From contig CAWFPH010000002.1 of NCBI GenBank assembly GCA_963817615.1, positions 769,168-833,167 on the forward strand: a DNA stretch of 64,000 nt, in the 5' to 3' direction. Within the stretch, counting starts at the first letter, position 1; every line of letters starts with the position of its first letter. A program made the position numbers and the translations under genes. Source of the stretch: an uncultured Gammaproteobacteria bacterium. Lineage in GTDB: Bacteria; Pseudomonadota; Gammaproteobacteria; Steroidobacterales; Rariloculaceae. Below are positions 9,110 to 23,142 of this stretch, piece after piece. The notes under the pieces were generated by a model. The model ran no database searches, was not told where the DNA came from, and was given only the letters and a program-made list of their open reading frames with translations.

Positions 9110-9419
9110 AGCTCCTACAGAGGGCGGTCAATACGGCGCCGAAGATGAATCTCGCGATGCGTCAACTCGGTAGGTCTGATGGACGCGATCTCTATTACAA
9201 GATGGTCATGCCTACTGTCGATGCGGGGTCGAGTAGCCGTTCACGCGTCACGGAAGGAAACCATGACTGAGGCGAGTTACCCGGGCGATTTTTCAGTTCT
9301 TTTGGACCAAAACCATCGACTCGCGGAACCGATGTTGAGCACGATTCGCGCGCACTACGGGCAACCGTTCTCTCCGAATTCGCAGGCCCGTTAACCGTCG
9401 CGGGCATGCGTCGATCGCG

Positions 9420-11069: not shown

Positions 11070-11339
11070 GCGTAATTCCCCCTTCGAGGTTAGTTCAATG
11101 CCTTTTGCCCGTCCGACCTTGCTCCGGCTTGCTGAGTTAGACCGTGCGTTATCGAACAGACATGCGGGTACACGAGAAATCGCAGCTCGTGCCACCGCTC
11201 CCGCTTCCCGAAATACATATCCTCGTCGAATCCGCGGAAAGACGACGACCACGTCGCGTTACCTTCTCCGCTGCAAACCGACAACAATCAACGAGGCGAC
11301 GCTCGCCCGCCGCGCCGGAGCGGCTAGCGTCGAAGGACA

Positions 11340-11551
11340 TTCGCATGAACTGGGCACGGCGCCTGAAACGCGTGTTTGGGATAGAGATCGAGCAGTGCGC
11401 GCGCTGCGGCGGGCGCTTGAAAGTGATTGCGAGCATCGAGGCGCCGGAGCTGATCGAACGCATTCTCGCGCACCGGCGTGAGTGGGGCGAGGAGGGGACG
11501 CCGATGGCCTCGCTCGGGCCGCGAGCGCCGCCGCAGCCGTGGCTGTTTTGA
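11340..11551 (+). mobile_element. IS91-family transposase, C-terminal fragment
   Basis: MNWARRLKRVFGIEIEQCARCGGRLKVIASIEAPELIERILAH...RAPP matches the conserved C-terminal zinc-ribbon tail of IS91-family (rolling-circle) transposases. No N-terminal part is upstream on this strand. Confidence 0.7.
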
Positions 11552-11775
11552 TTCGGCAGATCGTCGACGGGCTCGTGTGCTGCGGCGCGGGCGACGGGCG
11601 GCGCTGTGCCCGGAGGCGAACGGCGGCTGCCGGGAGCGTCCGCGCGTTCAAACTCTGCGCCGACGTCGGGCGTGACGCCAGATCAGCGTCGCGACCCGCC
11701 TGCGGCTTTGACACAACGGCGGTTACGCGCACCGCTGCCCGCGGAGCAGGGGGGCTTCAAAATTCCTATCCGCGC

Positions 11776-12324
11776 TGCGTGGTCTACCCGTCTTGCGACC
11801 TCATCGCGCCCGGCGTCGTGCGCCACACGGGCGGCGGCAACCGCTTCATGCTCGGCGAGCCGAACGGCGAGAAGTCCGAGCGCGTCAAAGCGCTGGCCGA
11901 GGCGATGGCGGCCGGCGGTTTGAAAGCGCCGGTCCGTGCGCGCATTCGCGACGATATTTGGTTCAAGCTGCTCGGCAACGCCACATTTAACCCCGTAAGC
12001 GTGCTGACGGGCGCGACCCTCGAGCAGATGGGCCAGCATGCCGGCGTGCGAGCCGTGATCAAGGCGCTCATGCGCGAGGTGGAGCAAGTCGCCGAGAAGC
12101 TCGGCGTGAAGTTCCCCATGGAGCTCGACAAGCGCATCGACGGCGCCACGGCCGTCGGTGCGCACCAAACGTCGATGTTGCAGGATTTCGAGCTCGGGCG
12201 CCCGCTCGAGCTCGACGCGCTCGTGGCCTCGGTCGCCGAGATCGGCCGGCTGGCCGCGTGTCCGACCCCGACGCTCGACGCTCTGCTCGCGCTCGTCCGG
12301 CTGAAGGTCGAGCTTCGTTCCTAG
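11776..12324 (+). pseudogene. 2-dehydropantoate 2-reductase (PanE/ApbA)-like gene, C-terminal domain only
   Basis: VVYPSCDLIAPGVVRHTGGGNRFMLGEPNG...DDIWFKLLGNATFNPVSVLTGATL...QTSMLQDFELGRPLELDAL is the PanE C-terminal domain. The N-terminal Rossmann domain (GxGxxG) is absent. Confidence 0.6.
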
Positions 12325-12596
12325 CCCGAGAACTCCTTGTCGAGGACGAACAGCTTCACCGTGTCGCGCTTGACGCCGTCGTTCTTCATGGCGGCCTGCG
12401 TGGACTCCGACTTGATGAAATCCATATAAGCGCTGACGTCATCCGTGTCGGTGCTCATGACCACATGGTTGTCGGCACCGACCGTGTACTGCATGGGACC
12501 GAGGCCCGCGGCCTTGAACAGCTCGCCATGCGTGCGAAAAGCGCGTTCCCAGCTCGCGCGGTCTTGGACATCCGCCGTCAAAATGACTAAAGCCAT
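12321..12596 (-). CDS. small hypothetical protein (91 aa)
   Basis: The internal ATG at 12596 gives MALVILTADVQDRASWERAFRTHGELFKAAGLGPMQYTVG...KLFVLDKEFSG, which has globular composition. The ORF upstream of this Met is an unrelated IS91 fragment read through in frame. Confidence 0.5.
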   Translation of the reverse strand: MALVILTADVQDRASWERAFRTHGELFKAAGLGPMQYTVGADNHVVMSTDTDDVSAYMDFIKSESTQAAMKNDGVKRDTVKLFVLDKEFSG

Positions 12597-12686
12597 TCTC
12601 GTTTCCTCTTCTCTCTTGTGTAACGCTCTGGAGTCTACACCACGCCGCCTGGGATTGAACCGGCACCTCACCGCTCCCCGTCCTCC

Positions 12687-12990
12687 CGGCGTGACCGCCG
12701 CCCGCAGCGCCGCGTGTGCGGCGAACACTCCATGAAATCTCGTTAGGTGTACCCGCGGCGGCGGCACCAGCGCCGCGAGCCGCGCGATGAAGTCCAACGG
12801 CTCCAGCACGATGTGCGTCGTCCCATCTTGATACGGTGTCTTCAATCGGTAGCGGACTTGGCCCTGCACCGTGAGATCGAGCCGCTCCTCCGCCACCCGG
12901 TGGGCGGCTCACGTAGCGGGTGAGCCTCTCCAGCTTCCCTCGCTGCTCGGTCTCCACACCAATGCCCGCAGCCCAACGCTCCAGCGGAAA
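12687..12990 (-). mobile_element. IS91-family transposase, internal fragment with frameshift
   Basis: AEERLDLTVQGQVRYRLKTPYQDGTTHIVLEPLDFIARLAALVPPPRVHLTRFHGVFAAHAALRAAVTP, together with the upstream RGKLERLTRYVSRPP in a different frame (shift at ~12897-12900), matches the conserved IS91 transposase core. Confidence 0.65.
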
Positions 12991-13264
12991 TCATGAGCGG
13001 GTGGTGGGCAATTCTAAGGGAATTCGAATTGGAGAGGGCTCTGTCCGAATGGGCGGTAACTCGATCGGAACCCGAAATTTTCTTCCCACTCATTGATGAG
13101 TGCATTGGCGATTTATCGCTCTCCGAGAATAGTGGAAGGACGAACTGGATTTCGCGGAACATCGAGGTCGTTCAACTCACTAAAAGCGGGACAACTTCGT
13201 GAGAATTGACCTTGAATGATGCGGAGCCCGATCTGCACAGTCCACAATCGACTCGCCATTGTGG

Positions 13265-13969
13265 TCAGCCGACGGTTTCAACAGCGACCGCTTTGCCCAA
13301 GCGCACACCTCGACCCGCCGCAATCTCTCTCCAATCCATTAACAGATCCGCAAAGACAATCGAAACCATCGCATACAAAATCACGGAATAGCTTCCTGCC
13401 TCAACGCTCAAGTGGTCCAGACCAGGAAGGTGACTGAGAGCTCGGCTCATAACAAAAACCCCTGGTCCAACCGCATAACCGCGGGCCATCCACCGGCGAT
13501 GCGGCCCAATTTTCCCTCTGCGTGCGGCGATCACCGCGGTAACTGTGCAGAGAATCCATGCGCCCGCCTGCGCTGTGGCGCTGCACGGAAGAAACGCGGG
13601 ATAGTGCCAGGCGAGAACAGGTGCCAATACGCCAGCCACAATCACCGCACCGAGATAGGTCTTGCCCAGCAACCTGTGCCGAGCAATATTCCTCTGCCTC
13701 AAGCGCGAAGAAAATTGCATGGGGCCTACGACCAGCGCGACTAATCCCGCGGCGATGTGGGGGAAGAGGAGCCAACGCTGCGAATACAGCAGGCTATGAA
13801 GCGGGTGCGCCGGACTCATCATCGGAATGCTGGTGAACAGGAAGGCCACTAACGCCATCGACCCGAAGACCATCCAGGACACGGTTTTCTTCAAGCCGCC
13901 AGCTGTCGGGCGCGTGACTTCGCCGTGCGTTTGAAGGTTTTGACTGCCAAGTGTGCTGACAGTATTCAT
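13265..13969 (-). CDS. DUF2306-like integral membrane protein
   Basis: Start at ATG 13969 with GGAGGG 5 nt upstream. HIAAGLVALVVGPMQFSSRLRQRNIARHRLLGKTYLGAVIVAG fits the DUF2306 pattern as I remember it. The gene lies in the low-GC segment. Confidence 0.7.
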   Translation of the reverse strand: MNTVSTLGSQNLQTHGEVTRPTAGGLKKTVSWMVFGSMALVAFLFTSIPMMSPAHPLHSLLYSQRWLLFPHIAAGLVALVVGPMQFSSRLRQRNIARHRLLGKTYLGAVIVAGVLAPVLAWHYPAFLPCSATAQAGAWILCTVTAVIAARRGKIGPHRRWMARGYAVGPGVFVMSRALSHLPGLDHLSVEAGSYSVILYAMVSIVFADLLMDWREIAAGRGVRLGKAVAVETVG

Positions 13970-14009
13970 AGGATCCCTCCAAAGAACGCCATCCATGGCA
14001 TCGCCAAGG

Positions 14010-14438
14010 CTATGCGCGTCTGATCGGATCGTGAGGAACGGCGTGGGGATCGATCGAAGTATTGTGGCCGTTGCAAATCTGCCATTCGCCACCCGCTTTC
14101 ACGGTAACGAGAGTCAGGCGGTCGACCACTCCACTCATGCGTCGTCCATCCGGTGTCACATAGTCACCCATCCTTAGAGTTAACGTCGCAATGGCCACAT
14201 CATTTGAAATCATTCGAATCTCAGGATCGCTTTGCTCCATAGCGGTTTCGCGGAACATTCCTGCATGCAATACCTCATGAGCTTTGACGATTTCATCGCG
14301 CCCCCTCCACCACATGCCCACAACATTCACCCAATCCGCATCCTCGGCCAGTATTTTGCCCAGATCCTCCAACTGGTGACGATTCCAAATGCTCCCCAGA
14401 GATCGAACGAGCGCTACAATTTTCGACTTGTCATCCAC
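14010..14438 (-). CDS. NTF2-fold / SnoaL-like (DUF4440-type) protein
   Basis: 142 aa. IVALVRSLGSIWNRHQLEDLGKILAEDADWVNVVGMWWRGRDEIVKAHEVLH...LVTVKAGGEWQICNGHNT is typical of SnoaL/SgcJ-type NTF2-like proteins. Confidence 0.7.
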   Translation of the reverse strand: MDDKSKIVALVRSLGSIWNRHQLEDLGKILAEDADWVNVVGMWWRGRDEIVKAHEVLHAGMFRETAMEQSDPEIRMISNDVAIATLTLRMGDYVTPDGRRMSGVVDRLTLVTVKAGGEWQICNGHNTSIDPHAVPHDPIRRA

Positions 14439-14541
14439 GACAAATCTCCCGATGTATGAACCGCACTTACAAGGCTGATCTGCCGAGTTAACTGGCTGCG
14501 GTACCTCGACATGCGCAGCTACTCGCCTTCATCGCCATAGT

Positions 14542-15495
14542 CTATTGGAGGTTCCCTGCGGAGAATTGTAAAAATGCGACATTTCCGAAAACTGGTGCTT
14601 CAGTTGACCGCGATGAACAAGGCTCGATCGAATGAAAGTCCACATCCGGCAGCGAAACGAGCAGCTTTTGCGGAGCGGCGCCTGCCAGCAGGCGCGTGTC
14701 TCGGATCAGATGCGCCTGGTCAAAGTAGCCGGCGTCTGAAGCAACCCTCGTCCACGAAAAACCTGGATTGGTTTGCTTTCTCAGCACGGCAAATTCAAGA
14801 CGCGCCACCCTTGAAAACAGCTTCGGCGCAACTCCCACACGTTCGCGAAACTGTCTTTCAAACTGTCGCAGGCTCAGATTGCATTGGCGAGCCAACAACG
14901 CCAAGTCTACCATTCCATGTCTTCGGCGTATCCATCTGGCCGCCAACTCAACCGGCGAAATTTCGATCGTCCGACGCAGTTGTCGTAGTAGAAATTCATC
15001 TGCCGCATCCGCAAGTTCCCGGACCGCGACGGCATTCTGCAGCCGGTTCAACAGATAAGAGACTTCTCGACCCAGTACGCTTTCCCCAGGCAGAGCCTTG
15101 TCGGCTAGTGGATGAATCGGAATGCGAAAGAGCGCATGTAGGCCTGCCGGATGGAAATGAATCGTGAACGTTCGCACCAACCTTGGATAAATCAGATCGC
15201 CCTTGATCTTCGTACTGGGACCGGCGAGCAGGACTTTGGGTGCAGTCCAGATCCTCGCTGGCGTACGAATCTGGTAAGAGTCAAGGAGGTAAAACTCCAA
15301 AGTCTGCTGTGTGCGCGCGTAGATTGGACGCAGCACCGCACAATCCTCCGACTTACCCTGCCGCAAGCCGTAATGAGAGACATAGCGCGAAATCGGCTCG
15401 CACGGAGGGAACACCTTTAACTGCAACCTGAAACTGGTTTCAGTCATAGACAGACCATTCACGGCGCAATCAATCTGCCATTTTGCGGCAATCAC
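14542..15495 (-). CDS. AraC-family transcriptional regulator
   Basis: C-terminal double HTH: LARQCNLSLRQFERQFRERVGVAPKLFSRVARLEFAV...ASDAGYFDQAHLIRDTRLLAGAAP. The start is uncertain (15495 or ATG 15447). Confidence 0.85.
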   Translation of the reverse strand: MIAAKWQIDCAVNGLSMTETSFRLQLKVFPPCEPISRYVSHYGLRQGKSEDCAVLRPIYARTQQTLEFYLLDSYQIRTPARIWTAPKVLLAGPSTKIKGDLIYPRLVRTFTIHFHPAGLHALFRIPIHPLADKALPGESVLGREVSYLLNRLQNAVAVRELADAADEFLLRQLRRTIEISPVELAARWIRRRHGMVDLALLARQCNLSLRQFERQFRERVGVAPKLFSRVARLEFAVLRKQTNPGFSWTRVASDAGYFDQAHLIRDTRLLAGAAPQKLLVSLPDVDFHSIEPCSSRSTEAPVFGNVAFLQFSAGNLQ

Positions 15496-15960
15496 CTAAC
15501 GGTCCCGCAAGTATATTTCACACTCTCCGTAAGACAATCATGAAGCACACGATGTGAAAGAACGCCTGGTAGATCGAGAGCGAACGATTTTAGCGTACGA
15601 CGAGGCGGCGGAAGTTGCTCAGGGTATAGCATGGGAGAACATTCCACGTGACGCTAAGACGTTCATCGTCGAAACATGGCTTGGGCCTGGCCCCACCGAG
15701 TTTCGCGTTGCGAGTCTCCATGAATTTACGCTCGCTCTTGGCGACCAAAGTGATTTAACAACTGCCTGCGTGCGACTTCCATAAGTCATTCGCCGCGGAT
15801 AGGAATTTTGACCGCACTTCCGTGCCAGAGGCAGAGGGCGCATAAAAACGGGCGGTGCACGGCCCGAAACGCAGCGTCTTATACGGCGCCACCGCAAACT
15901 TGGCGTGCGCAAACTCAGCCCGGCTGCACTTGGTACGCTCAGTGAGTAGCCCATCAACAG

Positions 15961-18459
15961 ATGACACACGCGAAAGACGACATTCTGCAAAAGATCGCCC
16001 GCGAAGAGGCGCGGCTGCGCGAGCTCGATCGAACTCGTGAGGAAGCACGAACGCGAATCGCCTCGCTGAGATCGGAGCTCGATACCGCGCGAGAAGGCCC
16101 AACGGCGCCTCTACCCTTCCGCTCGGCGAACAACAGCGCACCACAGACGCCGACCGACAAAGTGCGACTATTCATTTCACTGTTCCGTGGCCGTCCCGAC
16201 GTATTCCCAACACGTTTCGTCAGCAAGAAAACTGGCAAGCCGGGCTATGCACCCGCTTGCTCCAACAAGTGGGAGCCCGGGCTTTGCGCGCTCCGGAGCG
16301 GCGGGAAATGCGGCGAATGTGCGAACCAGTCTTTCCTCCCGGTCGGCGATCAAGTGGTCCTCGATCACCTTCAGGGCAGGCACGTCATGGGCGTCTATCC
16401 CCTTCTTCCCGACGAGACCTGTTGGTTCCTGGCAGCCGACTTCGACAAGAGCTCGTGGCAAGAGGATGTCATTGCCTTCGCCGAGACTTGTAGCATCGCC
16501 GGCGTATGAGTCTCGATTGAGCGCTCTCGTTCAGGAAACGGCGCGCACGCATGGTTCTTCTTCGCTGCACCCGTCCCTGCCAACGTCGCGAGACGCATGG
16601 GTTGCTACCTCATCACCGAGACGATGAGCCGGCGCCACCAGCTCAGCATGGAATCCTATGACCGTCTGTTCCCGAATCAGGACACGATGCCGCGCGGCGG
16701 ATTCGGCAACCTCATCGCGTTGCCGCTCCACGAACCGAGGCAGGAGGGGAACAGCGTCTTCATCGATGAACGGTTTGAACCTTACGCGGACCAGTGGGCG
16801 TTCCTCGCAGCCGCTTCGCGGATCGACCCCGCCGTTGCGGAGGCAATCGCCCGGGACGCGACACGAACGGGCCAAGTCGTCGGCGTGCGGTTCGCCGAGA
16901 CCACGGACGATGAAGGGGCGGCCGCCCCGTGGATGCGGGCGCCGTCGGGCCACGTGCCCGCGAAGCGGACCGTCGGTCCCGTCCCGCGCGTTGTAAAAGC
17001 CGTGCTCGCCCAGCGGCTCTTCATCGAGAAATCCGGACTCCCTTCGCCGTTGTTGACTGAGCTCAGCCGTCTGGCGGCCTTCCAGAACCCGGAGTTCTAC
17101 AAGAAGCAGAGCATGCGCCTGTCCACGGCGTTGACGCCGCGCGTGATTGCGTGCGACGGCGAGCTTCCCCTTTTCATGGCACTCCCCCGAGGCTGCGTGC
17201 CGGATGCGCAACGGTTGCTTCGCGAGAACGGCGCGGAGCTCGCGATCGAGGATCAGCGGTACAAGGGCGCGCCGCTCGCGCACAAGTTTAGCGGCGAGCT
17301 CACGCCCGTCCAGAAAGAAGCTGCCCGTGCACTCCTGGCGCACGACACCGGAGTGTTTGTCGGGCCTCCTGGCATTGGCAAGACGGTTCTGGGCACGTAT
17401 CTCATCGCGCAGCGCGGTTGCCCGACGCTCATCCTCGTCCACCGAAAGCCGCTGTTAGAGCAATGGATCGCTCAGCTGGCGATGTTTCTAGGCCTCGACG
17501 AAAAGGCGATCGGCCAGATCGGCGGGGGCAAACGCAAGGCGAATGGCCGCCTCGATGTGGCGATGATCCAGAGCCTCGTGCGCAAGGACAAGGTCGAAGA
17601 CGTCGTTGCGCGATATGGGCACGTCATCGTCGACGAGTGCCACCACCTTCCGGCGGTCTCATTCGAACGTGTGCTCTCCGAGGTGAAGGCGCGGTTCGTC
17701 GCAGGGCTAACCGCAACGCCGCACCGGCGCGACGGACATCACCCGATTACTGAAATGCAGCTCGGGCCGGTTCGCTACAACGTCAGCGTCAAGAGTCACG
17801 TTGCGCGCAGACCGTTCGAGCATAAGCTCATCGTCCGCGAGACTGCGTTCCGGATGATCGGCGACAAGTCCGGTGCCGGCATCCAGGAAATCTACGGCGC
17901 ATTGGCGAGGGATGAGACACGCAACAGACGCATTCTCGACGATGTCATCGCCGTGCTCGAGCAGGGGCGCTCGCCCATTCTTCTGACCGAACGAAAAGAG
18001 CACGTGGAGTACTTCGCCGATCATCTGCGCCGACTCGTGCGACACGTCGTCGTTCTACGCGGTGGGATGACAGCGATGGCGCGTCGGAGCTCGGTCAGTC
18101 AGCTCGCGGCCATCCCAGATAACGAAGAGCGTCTCGTGCTCGCAACCGGCCGCTACATCGGCGAGGGGTTCGACGACGCGAGACTCGACACCCTGTTCCT
18201 GGCCATGCCGATTTCCTGGAAAGGCACGCTGATTCAGTACAGCGGTCGCCTTCACCGACATCACCCCGGCAAGAAGGAAGTACGGATCTACGACTACGTC
18301 GACCGCGAAGTCGCGATGCTTGTGCGGATGTTCGAGAAGCGACTGAGCACGTATCGTGCGATCGGCTACGCCAGGGGCGAGGCGCCACTCGGCTTCGCCG
18401 AGCCGGCCGAGGAGCGCGTCATTGAGTACGACGAGGAGTTGCTCCGACACGCGACCTAA
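15961..18459 (+). pseudogene. archaeo-eukaryotic primase (PrimPol) - SF2 helicase fusion gene, interrupted by one in-frame TGA at 16507-16509
   Basis: ORFs 15961-16509 and 16597-18459 are in the same frame. Reading across the single TGA gives CSIAGV*VSIERSRSGNGAHAWFFF. The N-terminus has a coiled coil, a Cys cluster (CSNKWEPGLC...CGEC), AEP motif I (FLAADFD, 16438-16446), motif II (SGNGAH, 16531-16548) and FPNQD...GGFGNLIALPL. The helicase part has Walker A GPPGIGKT (17362-17385), DECHH (17632-17646), TATP and QYSGRLHR. Confidence 0.85.
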
Positions 18460-18462
18460 CGT

Positions 18463-19098
18463 CTAGCGCGGTGTCGGCGGGGCGTATTCTGGCGGACGCG
18501 TCGCGACAACTGCGCCGCCATCGTCCACGATGCGCTCGGGTAGCAGGCATTGCCCTATTCGCGCAGGACTGATTTCGAAGTGGCCATGGCAGGTTCTCAT
18601 CAGCCCTCTTGCAGAGCTGAACTGCCCAGGCGGCGCCGCCACGTAGTACTTCTTGTCGACGAAGCGGCGTCGAGTCTTCTCGATAGCGGGAACGAGATCG
18701 GAATCCGCGCTGACGATGACGGCACGGTCGTAGAGATCGTCGTAACCATCCTCGACGACTGCGAGCGCAAGGCGTACGTCGGTCTCCTTCTCCTCGTGGG
18801 CCTTCCAGCTATGCCCGCAACGCCGACAGCTTCGATACTTGTCCTTGAAGTGCGCCATTACTGGGGTCGTCCCGGTGGTCTCCAATGCGGCAACGTACTG
18901 GCGATGACGGGCATACGGCCCCGGTAGCCATGTCGCGTAAGCACTGAAGTATCTGACGCAAGCCAGAGTTTCGCCCGGTCGCAGCATCGTTCGGGCAAGA
19001 GCAGACAGGTCAACCCATTTCAGATGAGGACGCCCGAGCTCGTCGATGGCGTGATACAGATTGAATCCGTCGAAGTAGCAGCAAACTCGCGTGACCAT
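18463..19098 (-). CDS. NYN-domain (LabA/PIN-like) putative ribonuclease with inserted Cys motif
   Basis: Start at ATG 19098 (GGGAG 9 nt upstream). The conserved acidic positions of NYN domains are present: CCYFDGFNLYH, EKETDVRLAL and VIVSADSDLVPAI. There is also a CRRCGH element. Its stop lies 3 nt from the PrimPol-helicase stop. Confidence 0.8.
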   Translation of the reverse strand: MVTRVCCYFDGFNLYHAIDELGRPHLKWVDLSALARTMLRPGETLACVRYFSAYATWLPGPYARHRQYVAALETTGTTPVMAHFKDKYRSCRRCGHSWKAHEEKETDVRLALAVVEDGYDDLYDRAVIVSADSDLVPAIEKTRRRFVDKKYYVAAPPGQFSSARGLMRTCHGHFEISPARIGQCLLPERIVDDGGAVVATRPPEYAPPTPR

Positions 19099-19279
19099 CG
19101 ACTCATGCTCCCGCAAACAAAAAAGGCCAGGCACCTTGCGGCGACCTAGCCTTATCCGCGGGGACGTACCCCGTGGGTTTACCGAGGCGCAATTTTAAAG
19201 ACATCCCTCACCACTTCGCAACCTCACATCGAGACCAGCGTGACGGGCATCTCGCCGGCGGCCGTTCGCCATTCGCTTA

Positions 19280-20377
19280 TCAGCGGATCCCCGCCTGATC
19301 GAGGCGCTTGACGAGATCCTCGGCCCGCAGGTGCGTGTAGCGGCGCAGCATCTGCATCGACTTGTGCCCCGAGATCGACGCGGCTTCCTGATCGCTCAAA
19401 CCCGCTTCGACGAGTCGCGATACGGCCTCGTGGCGCAAATCGTGAAACCGAAACCCTTTGATCTTCGCGTTGCGCACGGCGGTAAACCATGCGCGCTTGA
19501 AATCGTGACCGCGGCGTTGCCCATCGCGCCCCGGCTCGCCGAAAAACACCAACTCCGTATCCTCCGGCCGAACGGGGTTCTTGACTGCCGCGCGCATCAC
19601 CTTCACGGCCTGCTTGGACAAAGGCACGGTTCGCGCGGACCCGTTCTTGGTTTCGTTGAGCCGAATGACTCGGCGCTTCAAATCGACCTGATCGAGCGTC
19701 AGTGACTGGATTTCGCCCTGACGCATGCCGGTATAGAGCGCGAGCTTCACCATCCATCCGAGCATCGGATTCGAGTGCTCGCTACAGGCTTTGATCAGCA
19801 GCTTTTCTTCGGCCGGTCTCAGCCGCCGCGCCCGGCCGGGCGCTGGCGACGGCTTGCGCACCAGCGAGACCGGGTTGTAGACGACACTGAGCCGCCACTC
19901 CCGAATCGCCGTCGTATATAGATGAGAGAGCAGAGCGAGATCGAGCCGGACGCTCGACGACGACTGCCCTTCCTTGGTCCTGTCGTCGCGATATTTGGCG
20001 ATCACATCCGGCGTCAACGCCGTGAGGCTGTACTTGCCGAGACGGTCCTTCAGCGTCTTCGCGCGGCGGAGCTCGCGCGAAGCGGTCGTCACGCGCTTGG
20101 TCGGCGTGATCTCCGACAGGTAGCGATCGAGCGCCACCTTCAACGTCAGTTGATGCGAATCCGCTCGGTTGATGAAAACACCGCGCACCATTTCATCTTC
20201 GACGTTGCGCGCCCAATCCTCGGCGTCCCGCTTTGTGCGAAACGTCTTACTCGAGATCGGCCAACCCGTTTTGCGGACGACCGCTTTCCATTTGCCAGCG
20301 GCGGTTTTCAGCAGAGTAGCCAAGGTAAGACCCCCAATGCTCACGGGCGCGAGGCCACTCTTTCGAGTGTACCTCAC
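19280..20377 (-). CDS. int: tyrosine-type site-specific integrase
   Basis: The C-terminal catalytic pattern is present: ALYTGMRQGEI...FHDLRHEAVSRLVE...ISGHKSMQMLRRYTH (R...HxxR...Y). The true start is possibly TTG 20323 (MATLLKTAAGKWKAVVRK) with GGGGG upstream. The gene lies 66-120 nt from the tRNA-Phe 3' end. Confidence 0.9.
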   Translation of the reverse strand: MRYTRKSGLAPVSIGGLTLATLLKTAAGKWKAVVRKTGWPISSKTFRTKRDAEDWARNVEDEMVRGVFINRADSHQLTLKVALDRYLSEITPTKRVTTASRELRRAKTLKDRLGKYSLTALTPDVIAKYRDDRTKEGQSSSSVRLDLALLSHLYTTAIREWRLSVVYNPVSLVRKPSPAPGRARRLRPAEEKLLIKACSEHSNPMLGWMVKLALYTGMRQGEIQSLTLDQVDLKRRVIRLNETKNGSARTVPLSKQAVKVMRAAVKNPVRPEDTELVFFGEPGRDGQRRGHDFKRAWFTAVRNAKIKGFRFHDLRHEAVSRLVEAGLSDQEAASISGHKSMQMLRRYTHLRAEDLVKRLDQAGIR

Positions 20378-20442
20378 TGTACCTCTGCTGTACCTTCCGT
20401 GGACTTACGAGCCGAGCACGGTAACATAAGTCATTGATTAGA

Positions 20443-20518
<76 letters not shown>

Positions 20519-20684
20519 GTGCGGCAGGCGCGCGGAGCGCCGAACGGGCGAGTATTAGAACGAGCCGGTCGCGGGCGCGTCAAGGCGTTCTCTCAGGATC
20601 CTCCGGATAGGCCGGCGCGGCGCCGACGGCATTTTGCCGGTGTCGACTGCGGCGCGCGGGCCCGCAATTTGCATTCCCGCGGGC

Positions 20685-22004
20685 ATGAGCCACGCTCTTG
20701 CCGCCCCGCACGCCGAGGAGTTGCCGGCGCGCTACCGGCGCATCCGAGAGGACACCTTGCGTCTCGCCGCTCCGCTCGCGATCGAGGACCAGGTCGTGCA
20801 GGTGAGCGCAGAGACGAGTCCGACGAAATGGCACCTCGCGCATACGACGTGGTTCTTCGAGCGCTTCTGCCTCGCGACATATGCCAGAGGCTATGAGCCG
20901 GTCGATCCGCGTTACGACACGCTGTTCAACTCCTATTACTACACGGTCGGCGAAATGCACGCGCGCGCCGAGCGCGGGCTGCTGAGCCGCCCCACCGTGG
21001 CCGACATCCGCGAGTATCGCGCTCGCGTCGACGCCGCCATGACCCGATTGCTCGCCGAGCGCAGCCACGAGCGTGAGATCGCGGCGATCGTCGAGCTCGG
21101 CTTGAACCACGAGCAGCAGCATCAGGAGCTGTTGCTCACCGACGTGAAGCAGGTGCTATTCGCGAACCCGCTCGGACCGCGCTACGCGGACTTGCCGCTG
21201 CCGATGCCATGCCACGCCACCGCGGTCGACTTCGTAACTCAACCGAGCGGCGTGCTCGAGATCGGCGCAGATGGGCGCAGCTTCTGCTTCGACAATGAGA
21301 CTCCGCGTCATCGCGTGCTCGTGCGGGAGCATGCGCTCGGCTCACGGCTCGTCGCGAACGCCGAGTACCGCGAGTTCATCGACGACGGCGGTTATGGCGA
21401 GCCGCGTCTATGGCTCGCGGACGGCTGGGCGAAGATTCGCACCGAGCGGTGGTCGCGACCGCTCTGCTGGTCCGAGGACTGCGAGCGTGAATTCACGCTC
21501 GGGGGCTGGCGCGAGATCGACGCGCAGGCGCCCGTCTGCCACGTGAGCTACTACGAGGCCGACGCGTTCGCGCGATGGGCCGGCCGGCGGTTGCCGACCG
21601 AGGCCGAATGGGAGATCGCCGCGGCCGCCACCGCCGTCGCGGGCAACACCCTCGAGACGGGCTTCATGCAGCCGGTCGGCATCGAGCCGCGAGCGCCGCC
21701 GGTCGGGTCGGCCGCGGCGACCCAATCCGCGATGCCCGGGGGGAGGCCGCCGGTTTCGAAGATCTCGCAGCTCTGGGGCGACGTCTGGGAATGGTGCGCC
21801 TCGAGCTACGGACCCTACCCCGGCTTCGAGGCACACGCGGGATCGCTCGGCGAGTACAACGGCAAGTTCATGTGCAATCAGGTCGTGGTCCGCGGCGGCT
21901 CGTGCGCGAGCTGGGCGGAGCATCTGCGGCCCACTTATCGAAGTTTCTTTTATCCGCAAGACCGCTGGCAATTTTTGGGATTCAGACTCGCGAATGATCT
22001 CTGA
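20685..22004 (+). CDS. egtB: ergothioneine biosynthesis sulfoxide synthase EgtB (DinB-like + FGE-sulfatase domains)
   Basis: SPTKWHLAHTTWFFERF, ELGLNHEQQHQELLLTD and C-terminal GDVWEWCASSYGPYPGF...RGGSCAS match EgtB. Start taken at ATG 20685. Confidence 0.9.
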   Translation: MSHALAAPHAEELPARYRRIREDTLRLAAPLAIEDQVVQVSAETSPTKWHLAHTTWFFERFCLATYARGYEPVDPRYDTLFNSYYYTVGEMHARAERGLLSRPTVADIREYRARVDAAMTRLLAERSHEREIAAIVELGLNHEQQHQELLLTDVKQVLFANPLGPRYADLPLPMPCHATAVDFVTQPSGVLEIGADGRSFCFDNETPRHRVLVREHALGSRLVANAEYREFIDDGGYGEPRLWLADGWAKIRTERWSRPLCWSEDCEREFTLGGWREIDAQAPVCHVSYYEADAFARWAGRRLPTEAEWEIAAAATAVAGNTLETGFMQPVGIEPRAPPVGSAAATQSAMPGGRPPVSKISQLWGDVWEWCASSYGPYPGFEAHAGSLGEYNGKFMCNQVVVRGGSCASWAEHLRPTYRSFFYPQDRWQFLGFRLANDL

Positions 22005-22161
22005 ATCCCCGCCTTGAGGACGCGCCGGGGCGAAGCGACGGCGAAGCGAATGCTTGCAGCCGCGCGGGTCGGCCGCTGCTCGGCGTAGCGTCGGGCCGCC
22101 CGAGCGCACGGGTCGCCACATGCACCGCGCCGCTGGCGCGCAACTTGCACTCCGGCCGGGC

Positions 22162-23142
<981 letters not shown>

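What the first reader, a model, noticed from the sequence alone, without database searches (positions are those of the whole stretch)
15961..19098. PrimPol-SF2 helicase fusion paired tail-to-tail with a NYN nuclease next to the integrase: candidate conflict (defence) or element-replication module
- **The fusion gene:** one 833-codon reading frame encodes a coiled-coil N-terminus, a Cys4 cluster, and a complete archaeo-eukaryotic primase/PrimPol catalytic set (DxD in FLAADFD, SGNGAH, GGFGNLIALPL). These are fused to a superfamily-2 helicase (GPPGIGKT, DECHH, TATP, QYSGRLHR).
- **The partner gene:** its stop lies only 3 nt from the stop of a convergent gene for a NYN-domain nuclease, which has all the conserved acidic residues plus a CRRCGH insert. 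The pair lies directly beside the island integrase.
- **Why it is unusual:** AEP-helicase fusions are normally explained as replication initiators of mobile elements, but those usually carry SF3 or DnaB-type helicases.
- **Possible family:** an SF2/ResIII-type helicase fused to PrimPol is, as far as I remember, what NCBI labels as a predicted 'TOTE conflict system' primase-domain protein. I cannot verify that here, and I know of no experimental function for it.
- **Hypothesis:** a nucleic-acid-synthesising or remodelling enzyme coupled to an RNase-like effector in a tRNA island is a plausible uncharacterised two-gene defence system.
Basis: partly seen in the sequence, partly recalled or inferred. 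Interest (0 to 1): 0.8.

Follow-up and report, generated by a model that had tools for sequence, protein, structure and literature searches.

The report
Broken IEE gene beside NYN cargo
The primase-helicase fusion is a stop-codon-disrupted copy of the already characterised insertion-sequence excision enhancer (IEE) family, and the NYN nuclease next to it is an independent cargo gene of the same tRNA-Phe island, so this is ordinary and not a new two-gene defence system.

Summary
The sequence features are real. A reading frame at 15961-18459 carries an AEP/PrimPol domain and an SF2 helicase domain, and it ends 3 nt from a convergent NYN gene (18463-19098) beside an integrase and tRNA-Phe. The frame is broken by a TGA at 16507-16509, between primase motifs A and B.

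The fusion is not uncharacterised. It aligns end to end (46% identity over 756 residues, E=0) with E. coli O157 IEE (ECs_1305), the IS-excision enhancer. IEE is a Mn-dependent error-prone polymerase with microhomology end-joining activity. IEE itself matches Pfam "AEP-TOTE".

The NYN gene belongs to PADLOC family HEC-09 (E=2.6e-53), a single-gene defence candidate that gave no protection when tested.

The pairing is not conserved:
- None of 85 IEE loci has an NYN gene nearby.
- None of 80 NYN loci has an IEE gene nearby.
- Related tRNA-Phe islands carry int+NYN without IEE (L169), or int+IEE with AbiE and no NYN (L082, L002).
- DNA homology between these islands and the window breaks off at the ends of the IEE and NYN genes.

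No TPR, OB or TBP genes are present, so this is not a TOTE system.

Verdict: a decayed island with a recently inactivated iee homologue and an unrelated NYN cargo gene. Interest is low.

The parts
15961..18459 (+). iee-family gene (IS-excision enhancer homologue): N-terminal helical region, Cys4 cluster, Z1568-like/AEP-TOTE PrimPol domain and SF2 helicase-like ATPase. Disrupted by one in-frame stop.
   Evidence: Translation. Pfam AEP-TOTE 2.7e-90, ResIII 9e-22. BLASTP to E. coli IEE ECs_1305: 46% identity over 756 aa, E=0. At least 8000 homologues, those listed mostly about 835 aa with the same architecture.
16507..16509 (+). In-frame TGA (codon 183). It replaces a proline invariant in 15 homologues and lies between AEP motif A (D160/D162) and motif B (H196).
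   Evidence: The closest DNA relative L082 has CCG at this codon, so at least 2 nucleotide changes from any Pro codon are needed.
16597..18459 (+). Residual 620-aa ORF after the stop, starting at the first in-frame start codon. It holds AEP motif C and the whole helicase-like domain but lacks motifs A and B.
   Evidence: Motif positions.
18463..19098 (-). Intact NYN-domain gene (211 aa), a member of PADLOC candidate family HEC-09. An independent cargo gene.
   Evidence: Pfam NYN 6e-12. PADLOC HEC-09 2.6e-53, profile positions 2-199 of 203. 1355 homologues, those listed mostly about 205-215 aa. All invariant residues kept.
19280..20377 (-). Tyrosine recombinase (island integrase). This is the longest ORF; the true start may lie about 17-33 codons in.
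   Evidence: Phage_integrase 2.3e-34. 87% aa identity to the L082 integrase and 84% to the L169 integrase, both next to tRNA-Phe.
20443..20518 (-). tRNA-Phe(GAA), the integration site of the island. Its 3' end faces the integrase.
   Evidence: ARAGORN. Same arrangement in L082, L002 and L169. No second copy of the tRNA 3' end in the window.

Best explanation
The region is the integrase-proximal end of a decayed genomic island inserted at tRNA-Phe. It carries two unrelated cargo genes that happen to abut.

**Gene 1 (15961-18459)** is a homologue of IEE, the insertion-sequence excision enhancer of E. coli O157.
- Established for the E. coli protein: the AEP domain is a Mn2+-dependent, error-prone DNA polymerase. 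Together with the SF2 helicase-like domain (a DNA-dependent ATPase with no unwinding activity) it joins 3' overhangs through 4 bp or more of microhomology. In vivo it raises transposase-dependent excision of IS629, and reportedly of a wider class of IS that transpose through a circular intermediate, and it produces adjacent deletions.
- Inferred for the window copy: the same chemistry, because every catalytic residue aligns.
- Shown here: the window copy carries a premature TGA between polymerase motifs A and B. It therefore cannot make the two-domain protein that end joining requires, and it is most likely a recent pseudogene.

**Gene 2 (18463-19098)** is an intact stand-alone NYN (PIN-like) predicted RNase of the HEC-09 family. 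It travels with the integrase in a sister island that lacks IEE. Its function is unproven; a candidate defence or toxin role is inference only.

The 3-nt tail-to-tail spacing is a junction between two separately exchangeable modules, not an operon-like coupling.
For: **Identity with IEE.**
- BLASTP against ECs_1305 ('IS-excision enhancer IEE', L081:18953-21313) gives 46% identity over 756 aa, 635 bits, E=0, colinear from the Cys cluster to the C-terminus.
- IEE has the same Pfam set, led by AEP-TOTE at 1.7e-98.
- IEE catalytic residues D142, D144, H178, D216, K451 and R735 (PMC9943667) align with window D160, D162, H196, D234, K474 and R763.

**Recent inactivation.**
- dN/dS against L082 is 0.10 overall, 0.09 before the stop and 0.11 after it.
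- The window deviates at only 8 of 299 columns that are invariant in the other 15 sequences. That is within the range of intact homologues, which deviate at 2-15.

**No pairing.**
- tblastn finds no NYN in 80 IEE loci from 80 species, each with up to 10 kb of flank, nor in L082-L085, loci of the three closest relatives examined (81%, 77% and 76% identity).
- A HEC-09-type HMM finds nothing in the six-frame translation of 85 IEE loci (1.3 Mb), while the window scores 3.9e-115 as a positive control.
- None of 80 NYN loci (36 of them 5 kb or longer) has an IEE gene.
- NYN has no conserved neighbour at all; the largest neighbour cluster covers 5 of 82 loci.

**Modularity.**
- Window 18464-20585 (NYN + int + tRNA-Phe) is 76% identical in DNA to L169. 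In L169 the genes after NYN are not IEE.
- Window 15960-18449 and 19284-20587 are 79% identical to L082. In L082 AbiEi/AbiEii and two small ORFs occupy the place of NYN.
- L002 is a 5.6-kb island of att repeat, AbiEi, AbiEii, IEE, int and tRNA-Phe, with no NYN.
Against: - The stop cannot be checked against sequencing reads, so an assembly error or low-level TGA read-through is not excluded. Strong purifying selection along the whole gene fits either a very recent loss or an intact gene.
- IS-excision activity has been shown only for the E. coli protein, which is 46% identical. The natural role of the family outside E. coli is not established.
- The co-occurrence samples are modest: 85 and 80 loci out of at least 8000 and 1355 homologues. 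A lineage-specific pairing at a frequency below about 4% would be missed.
- No IS of the families IEE acts on was looked for outside 9-23 kb of the window.
Confidence: 0.85

Rival explanations
1. The PrimPol-helicase fusion and the NYN nuclease form a two-gene defence system, with a nucleic-acid synthesising or remodelling sensor coupled to an RNase effector.
For: - The two genes converge with only 3 nt between their stops.
- Both lie in a tRNA island beside the integrase.
- NYN matches a PADLOC defence-candidate family.
- The AEP domain matches a PADLOC 'PrimPol, CAS-associated' profile at 5e-83.
Against: - No co-occurrence in either direction: 0 of 85 and 0 of 80 loci.
- Sister islands carry each gene without the other, and DNA homology ends at the gene boundaries.
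- Convergent genes cannot share a transcript.
- The fusion is a pseudogene here while NYN is intact.
- HEC-09 is described as a single-gene candidate and showed no protection in tests.
Confidence: 0.03
2. The fusion is the replication initiator (primase-helicase) of the integrative element, like the AEP-helicase proteins of plasmids, satellites and PICIs.
For: - AEP-helicase fusions are typical replication modules of mobile elements (PMC5862659).
- IEE homologues sit in islands. A tyrosine recombinase lies within 10 kb in 19 of 85 loci, and a tRNA or tmRNA gene lies within 3 kb in 15 of 60 loci.
- The minimal island L002 has little besides AbiE, IEE and int.
- 313 plasmid records encode homologues.
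Against: - Purified E. coli IEE has DNA-dependent ATPase activity but does not unwind DNA, and it behaves as an error-prone gap-filling and MMEJ polymerase (PMC9943667).
- Its genetic phenotype is transposase-dependent IS excision.
- Most of the 85 loci (66) have no recognisable integrase nearby.
- In E. coli SpLE1, a separate DUF3987 protein and a weakly Rep-like protein (below Pfam thresholds) lie just upstream.
Confidence: 0.07
3. The locus is a TOTE conflict system (TPR, OB, TBP, Effector) with the AEP protein as a component.
For: Pfam names the domain 'TOTE conflict system, Archaeo-Eukaryotic Primase domain'.
Against: - TOTE is defined by TPR-CSD/OB and TBP genes (PMC12458937). None of the 13 main ORFs scanned between 9.5 and 23 kb matches TPR, OB/CSD or TBP families.
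- No neighbour is shared by more than 12 of 80 loci in the ORF clustering. The HMM recount raises the most frequent neighbour, AbiEii, to 15 of 80.
- E. coli IEE matches the same Pfam model even better, so the model covers the IEE/Z1568-like AEP family in general.
Confidence: 0.02
4. The gene is functional in the organism. The TGA is an assembly or sequencing error, or is read through often enough to give full-length IEE.
For: - dN/dS is about 0.1 on both sides of the stop.
- All catalytic residues are kept.
- The window's deviation count is like that of intact homologues.
Against: - The codon differs from any proline codon at 2 or more positions (TGA against CCG in L082). That is unusual for a simple base-call error.
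- A nearly invariant Gln after ALPL is also deleted.
- Single premature stops at other positions occur in 4 of 80 homologues, so inactivation recurs in this family.
- The island around the gene is degraded.
Confidence: 0.12

Closest known systems
IEE, IS-excision enhancer of E. coli O157:H7 (ECs_1305; Kusumoto 2011; Calvo 2023, PMC9943667)
   Same: Full-length colinear homology (46% identity over 756 aa). Same Pfam architecture of AEP-TOTE, ResIII and Helicase_C. Same Cys cluster and all catalytic residues. Both lie in an integrative element near its integrase.
   Different: The window copy is 46 aa longer at the N-terminus, carries a premature TGA and a one-residue deletion, and comes from a high-GC organism. 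No IS-excision activity has been tested. Its neighbours differ: in SpLE1, IEE follows DUF3987 and weakly Rep-like genes.
HEC-09 (Hma-embedded candidate 9; Payne et al., bioRxiv 10.1101/2024.01.29.577857; PADLOC PDLC04163)
   Same: Full-length HMM match (2.6e-53). NYN/PIN-like fold family with conserved aspartates. A single-gene unit with no conserved partner.
   Different: It is not embedded in an Hma, BREX or RM system here; it lies between an integrase and an iee pseudogene. The reference protein gave no phage protection in tests, so 'defence' is unproven for the whole family.
CRISPR-associated Prim-Pol (CAPP; PDB 7NQD-7NQF; NCBIfam PrimPol_Msp)
   Same: The nearest solved AEP structures by sequence profile (E=2e-17). 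NCBIfam PrimPol_Msp matches at 1.6e-24 and a PADLOC 'PrimPol, CAS-associated' profile at 5e-83.
   Different: The score is far below the NCBIfam cut-off (86 against 200 bits). No cas genes were seen among the ORFs scanned near the gene. CAPP lacks the fused SF2 helicase domain.
[quoted passage not shown] 2022, as cited in PMC12458937)
   Same: They share the AEP domain family that Pfam named after them.
   Different: The defining TPR-OB/CSD and TBP genes are absent. IEE-type genes occur alone with variable neighbours.
DNA polymerase theta and pAgo-associated PrimPol (AgaPP): MMEJ polymerases coupled to helicases (PMC11724360)
   Same: A functional analogy drawn in the literature: a polymerase plus a helicase-like domain promoting microhomology-mediated end joining.
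   Different: The polymerase folds or families differ. This is an analogy of mechanism only and was not tested here.

Membership tests
IEE (IS-excision enhancer) family | Full-length colinear homology to E. coli ECs_1305 | tested here: met
   BLASTP 46% identity, 756 aligned residues, 635 bits, E=0.
IEE (IS-excision enhancer) family | N-terminal Z1568-like AEP domain with motifs A (hDhD), B (sxH) and C (hD) | tested here: met
   PF22548 at 2.7e-90. D160/D162, H196 and D234 align with IEE D142/D144, H178 and D216. All are invariant in 16 sequences.
IEE (IS-excision enhancer) family | C-terminal SF2 helicase-like ATPase with Walker A lysine, DExH and arginine finger | tested here: met
   ResIII 9e-22 and Helicase_C 1e-4, just under its gathering score. 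K474, DECHH and R763 align with IEE K451 and R735.
IEE (IS-excision enhancer) family | Uninterrupted reading frame giving both domains in one polypeptide, as MMEJ requires | tested here: not met
   TGA at 16507-16509 between motifs A and B. The next in-frame start is at 16597. The gene is a member by descent but probably non-functional.
IEE (IS-excision enhancer) family | Enhancement of transposase-dependent IS excision; polymerase and MMEJ activity | not testable with these tools
   Shown only for the E. coli protein (PMC9943667; 10.1101/2023.06.07.543989).
HEC-09 (PADLOC candidate, NYN) | Full-length match to the HEC-09 profile | tested here: met
   PDLC04163 E=2.6e-53, profile positions 2-199 of 203.
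HEC-09 (PADLOC candidate, NYN) | NYN active-site aspartates conserved | tested here: met
   D10, D107, D132 and D134 are invariant in 18 sequences including the window. Pfam NYN 6e-12.
HEC-09 (PADLOC candidate, NYN) | Embedded within an Hma or other multigene defence system (the basis of its discovery) | tested here: not met
   It is flanked by an integrase and an iee pseudogene. No Hma, BREX or RM genes among the ORFs scanned.
HEC-09 (PADLOC candidate, NYN) | Anti-phage activity | not testable with these tools
   The published representative gave no protection against the phages tested.
TOTE conflict system | TPR-OB/CSD protein and TBP-like protein encoded with the effector | tested here: not met
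   No TPR, CSD/S1 or TBP match in the 13 main ORFs scanned between 9.5 and 23 kb. No such conserved neighbour in 80 homologous loci.
Two-gene PrimPol-helicase + NYN system (proposed) | Conserved co-occurrence of the two genes | tested here: not met
   0 of 85 IEE loci and 0 of 80 NYN loci. Each gene occurs without the other in sister islands.
MGE replicative primase-helicase | DNA unwinding coupled to priming at an element origin | not testable with these tools
   The literature reports no unwinding by E. coli IEE.

The most novel reading that the evidence does not exclude
IEE-family proteins may be conflict-system components that work with interchangeable toxin or effector modules placed next to them. 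AbiEi/AbiEii lies directly upstream on the same strand in about 15% of loci across several phyla. A NYN RNase occupies the neighbouring slot in this window. On this reading the window would be one (now broken) variant of a modular 'IEE + effector' system, rather than a chance juxtaposition.
Probability: 0.05. Interest if true: 0.6.

Novelty: new member of a known kind. Interest (0 to 1): 0.12.

Why it matters
The main value is as a correction.
- A gene that looks like an uncharacterised 'TOTE conflict-system primase-helicase' is in fact a member of the experimentally studied IEE family.
- The Pfam and NCBI labels ('AEP-TOTE', 'DEAD/DEAH box helicase') hide that link.
- The tight tail-to-tail NYN neighbour is a coincidence of modular island cargo. 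The result saves effort on a two-gene defence hypothesis that does not hold.

Minor positive value:
- The comparison shows a family of tRNA-Phe islands whose integrase-proximal slot exchanges NYN, AbiE and IEE modules.
- iee genes recurrently acquire single nonsense mutations.

Tried and rejected
- **Distal attachment-site repeat.** I looked for one to delimit the island. The tRNA-Phe 3' end (25 nt, up to 3 mismatches) occurs only once in the window. A 16/17-nt match at 9311-9327 does not extend and I treated it as chance. The left border stays undefined.
- **TOTE membership.** Rejected, because no TPR, OB or TBP genes are present.
- **NYN missed through divergence.** I tested this with a family HMM on six-frame translations. 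There were no hits even at E<=10, while the positive control scored 3.9e-115.
- **Obligate integrase partnership.** An iterated HMM found a tyrosine recombinase in only 19 of 85 loci.
- **Solved structures.** No IEE structure exists. The nearest are XPB-type helicases, CAPP PrimPol, RadD and UvsW. For NYN there is only a marginal hit, 2QIP. I did not run structure prediction because the sequence evidence was decisive.
- **Recoding at the TGA.** The stops in other homologues lie at different positions, so a conserved recoding site is rejected.
- **All3500-like AEP family.** Considered as a home for the fusion. It was superseded by the direct match to the Z1568-like/IEE family.
Full report
**1. 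Observation**

The frame 15961-18459 (+) translates as 833 codons, with one internal TGA at 16507-16509 and a terminal TAA. Taken mechanically it is two ORFs, 15961-16509 (182 aa) and 16597-18459 (620 aa).

With the stop bridged, Pfam finds AEP-TOTE (PF22548, E=2.7e-90, aa 66-291), ResIII (9e-22) and a weak Helicase_C just under its gathering score.

On the minus strand a NYN gene ends 3 nt from the fusion's stop. Its homologues are about 205-215 aa, which fixes its start at the ATG at 19098. An integrase (19280-20377) and tRNA-Phe (20443-20518) follow. The description is accurate. The one thing under-weighted is that the frame is broken.

**2. What the fusion is**

The family is very large and uniform. 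At least 8000 homologues were found. The 120 listed are mostly about 835 aa, share the same domains and are 67-82% identical to the window protein. A genome scan found it in at least 599 stretches of species-representative genomes spanning many phyla. Plasmids also carry it, in 313 records.

A literature search for AEP plus superfamily-2 helicase led to the E. coli O157 insertion-sequence excision enhancer, IEE. It is a 786-aa protein with a Z1568-like AEP domain fused to an SF2 helicase domain (PMC9943667).

I fetched ECs_1305, annotated 'IS-excision enhancer IEE', from the Sakai chromosome and compared it directly:
- It is 46% identical over 756 residues (635 bits, E=0), colinear from the Cys cluster to the C-terminus.
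- IEE matches the same Pfam models, and matches AEP-TOTE better than the window does (1.7e-98).
- The published catalytic residues D142, D144, H178, D216, K451 and R735 align with window D160, D162, H196, D234, K474 and R763.

So the Pfam name 'AEP-TOTE' covers the IEE/Z1568-like AEP family, and the window gene is an iee homologue.

**3. What is known about how IEE works (literature, not tested here)**

- IEE raises excision of IS629, and reportedly of a wider class of IS that transpose through a circular intermediate. The effect depends on an active transposase (10.1101/2023.06.07.543989).
- The purified protein is a Mn2+-dependent, error-prone DNA polymerase.
- It joins 3' overhangs with 4 bp or more of microhomology, and this needs both domains.
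- Its C-terminal domain is a DNA-dependent ATPase that does not unwind duplex DNA (PMC9943667).
- The literature compares it with polymerase theta (PMC11724360).

**4. State of the window copy**

- The TGA replaces a proline that is invariant in all 15 aligned homologues.
- It lies between AEP motifs A and B. Neither the 182-aa product nor the 620-aa restart product can hold a complete polymerase site, and the two-domain protein needed for end joining is not made.
- At DNA level the closest relative has CCG where the window has TGA, so at least two substitutions are involved. A nearly invariant Gln after ALPL is also deleted.
- Otherwise the gene looks healthy. dN/dS against L082 is 0.10, the same on both sides of the stop. 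It deviates at only 8 of 299 family-invariant columns, within the 2-15 range of intact homologues.
- Inactivation is therefore recent, or, less likely, the stop is an assembly artefact.
- Single premature stops at other positions occur in 4 of 80 species-representative homologues (L001, L026, L034, L064). Loss of this gene recurs, and the window's stop is not a conserved recoding site.

**5. The NYN gene**

- It matches PADLOC family HEC-09 over the full profile (E=2.6e-53).
- HEC-09 is a single-gene NYN candidate found embedded in Hma systems. Its representative protected against none of the phages tested (10.1101/2024.01.29.577857).
- The window copy is intact and keeps all family-invariant residues.
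- Around its homologues there is no conserved partner. The largest neighbour cluster covers 5 of 82 loci.

**6. Is the pair a system?**

Forward test:
- In 80 IEE loci from 80 species, with up to 10 kb on each side, tblastn with the window NYN finds nothing.
- L082-L085, loci of the three closest relatives examined (81%, 77% and 76% identity), also lack it.
- A HEC-09-type HMM finds nothing in six-frame translations of 85 loci (1.3 Mb), while scoring 3.9e-115 on the window.

Reverse test:
- None of 80 NYN loci, 36 of them 5 kb or longer, encodes an IEE homologue.

The most telling evidence comes from sister islands at tRNA-Phe:
- **L169** has tRNA-Phe, int (84% aa), NYN (83% aa), then a small Xis-like gene and unrelated genes. 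It is 76% identical in DNA to window 18464-20585, and the homology stops at the end of NYN.
- **L082** has tRNA-Phe, int (87% aa), an 85-aa gene, AbiEii, AbiEi, a 176-aa ORF and IEE (81% aa). DNA homology covers only window 15960-18449 and 19284-20587.
- **L002** is a 5.6-kb island bounded by a roughly 45-nt repeat of the tRNA-Phe 3' half. It contains AbiEi, AbiEii, IEE and an integrase.

Each gene therefore occurs without the other in the same island family, and the homology breakpoints coincide with the ends of the IEE and NYN genes. The 3-nt spacing is a junction between independent modules.

**7. Other readings**

- **TOTE system.** TOTE stands for TPR, OB, TBP, Effector. No such genes are among the ORFs scanned between 9.5 and 23 kb or conserved near homologues.
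- **Element-replication module.**
  - In favour: the island and plasmid context fits. A tyrosine recombinase lies within 10 kb in 19 of 85 loci, and a tRNA or tmRNA gene within 3 kb in 15 of 60 loci.
  - Against: IEE lacks unwinding activity, its known phenotype is IS excision, and most loci have no nearby integrase. I give this about 7%.

**8. Context of the window island**

Left of the iee pseudogene lie:
- an AraC-type regulator, a SnoaL/DUF4440 protein and a DUF2306 membrane protein, in a lower-GC stretch (0.53-0.56);
- then IS91/Y2-type transposase fragments around a truncated PanE-like ORF.

No distal att repeat and no Xis-like gene are present. Right of tRNA-Phe are EgtB/EgtD-like genes, followed by a long ORF that looks like acetyl-CoA synthetase (not scanned); this is chromosomal backbone. 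The island looks old and degraded, which fits a pseudogenised cargo gene.

**9. Verdict**

The fusion is a new, probably dead, member of the known IEE family. The NYN gene is a member of the known but functionally unproven HEC-09 family. They are not a system. Interest is low (0.12).

The most novel reading left open is that IEE works with interchangeable neighbouring toxin modules: AbiE in about 15% of loci and NYN here. I rate it at about 5%.

Noticed in passing
L002:597-4597; also L007, L012, L036, L049, L050, L053, L057, L076: AbiEi-AbiEii (type IV toxin-antitoxin / abortive infection) lies directly upstream of IEE on the same strand, with gaps of 0-56 nt, in 9 of the 67 loci that have enough upstream sequence. 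The loci span Proteobacteria, Acidobacteriota and Nitrospirota. AbiEii lies within 10 kb in 15 of 80 loci, and also in L082 and L166. It is the only recurrent neighbour of IEE. It is absent from the window.
   Followed up: partly
L001:9777, L026:2523, L034:10331, L064:1183: Four of 80 species-representative IEE homologues carry a single in-frame stop, each at a different position (aligned to window residues 131, 324, about 180, and 86). This suggests recurrent inactivation of this gene family.
   Followed up: partly
L002:353-6053: A minimal 5.6-kb integrative island bounded by a roughly 45-nt direct repeat of the tRNA-Phe 3' half. It contains only AbiEi, AbiEii, IEE and a 430-aa integrase.
   Followed up: yes
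L082:7244-7695 and 12500-12951; L169:2721-2978: Two 81%-identical direct repeats of about 450 bp, each encoding an 85-aa gene. By eye it looks like an AlpA/Xis-type HTH protein, but it has no Pfam match. The repeats bracket the IEE-AbiE segment in L082, and a single copy follows NYN in L169. The window has no copy. This may mark tandem elements or a recombination scar.
   Followed up: partly
L083:4363-6663 (same in L084:219-2519): A second AEP-TOTE protein of 766 aa, with no helicase-family matches, lies 1.3 kb upstream of the IEE homologue. A 196-aa ORF and a short integrase fragment separate them. Its relation to IEE or to true TOTE systems was not examined.
   Followed up: no
window 11144-12896: IS91/Y2_Tnp-type transposase fragments (12321-12896 minus strand; 11144-11551 plus strand looks like an IS91 C-terminus by eye but has no Pfam match). 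They flank an ORF (11482-12324) in which only the C-terminal ApbA_C domain of PanE matches. This is a rearranged, degraded stretch of the island.
   Followed up: partly
window 13001-16000: A lower-GC segment (0.53-0.56 against 0.62-0.70 around it). It carries an AraC-family regulator (14542-15495), a SnoaL/DUF4440 protein (14010-14438) and a DUF2306 membrane protein (13265-14092), all on the minus strand.
   Followed up: no
window 16726-16731 (codons after ALPL): A one-residue deletion of a nearly invariant Gln directly after the GGFGNLIALPL motif of the AEP domain. It is the only indel relative to 15 homologues within the catalytic core.
   Followed up: partly
L005, L007, L011, L015, L016, L022, L029, L033, L036, L044, L045, L050, L054, L055, L058: A tRNA or tmRNA gene lies within 3 kb of the IEE homologue in 15 of 60 loci scanned, often within 0.1-0.4 kb. 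The tRNA identities vary (Phe, Gln, Gly, Thr, Ala, Met, Asn, tmRNA). IEE tends to sit at the edge of islands that use different attachment sites.
   Followed up: partly
window 20634-23142: Immediately right of tRNA-Phe are an EgtB-like gene (DinB_2 + FGE-sulfatase) and an EgtD-like histidine methyltransferase (Methyltransf_33, E=1e-110). These look like an ergothioneine biosynthesis pair on the chromosomal flank.
   Followed up: no
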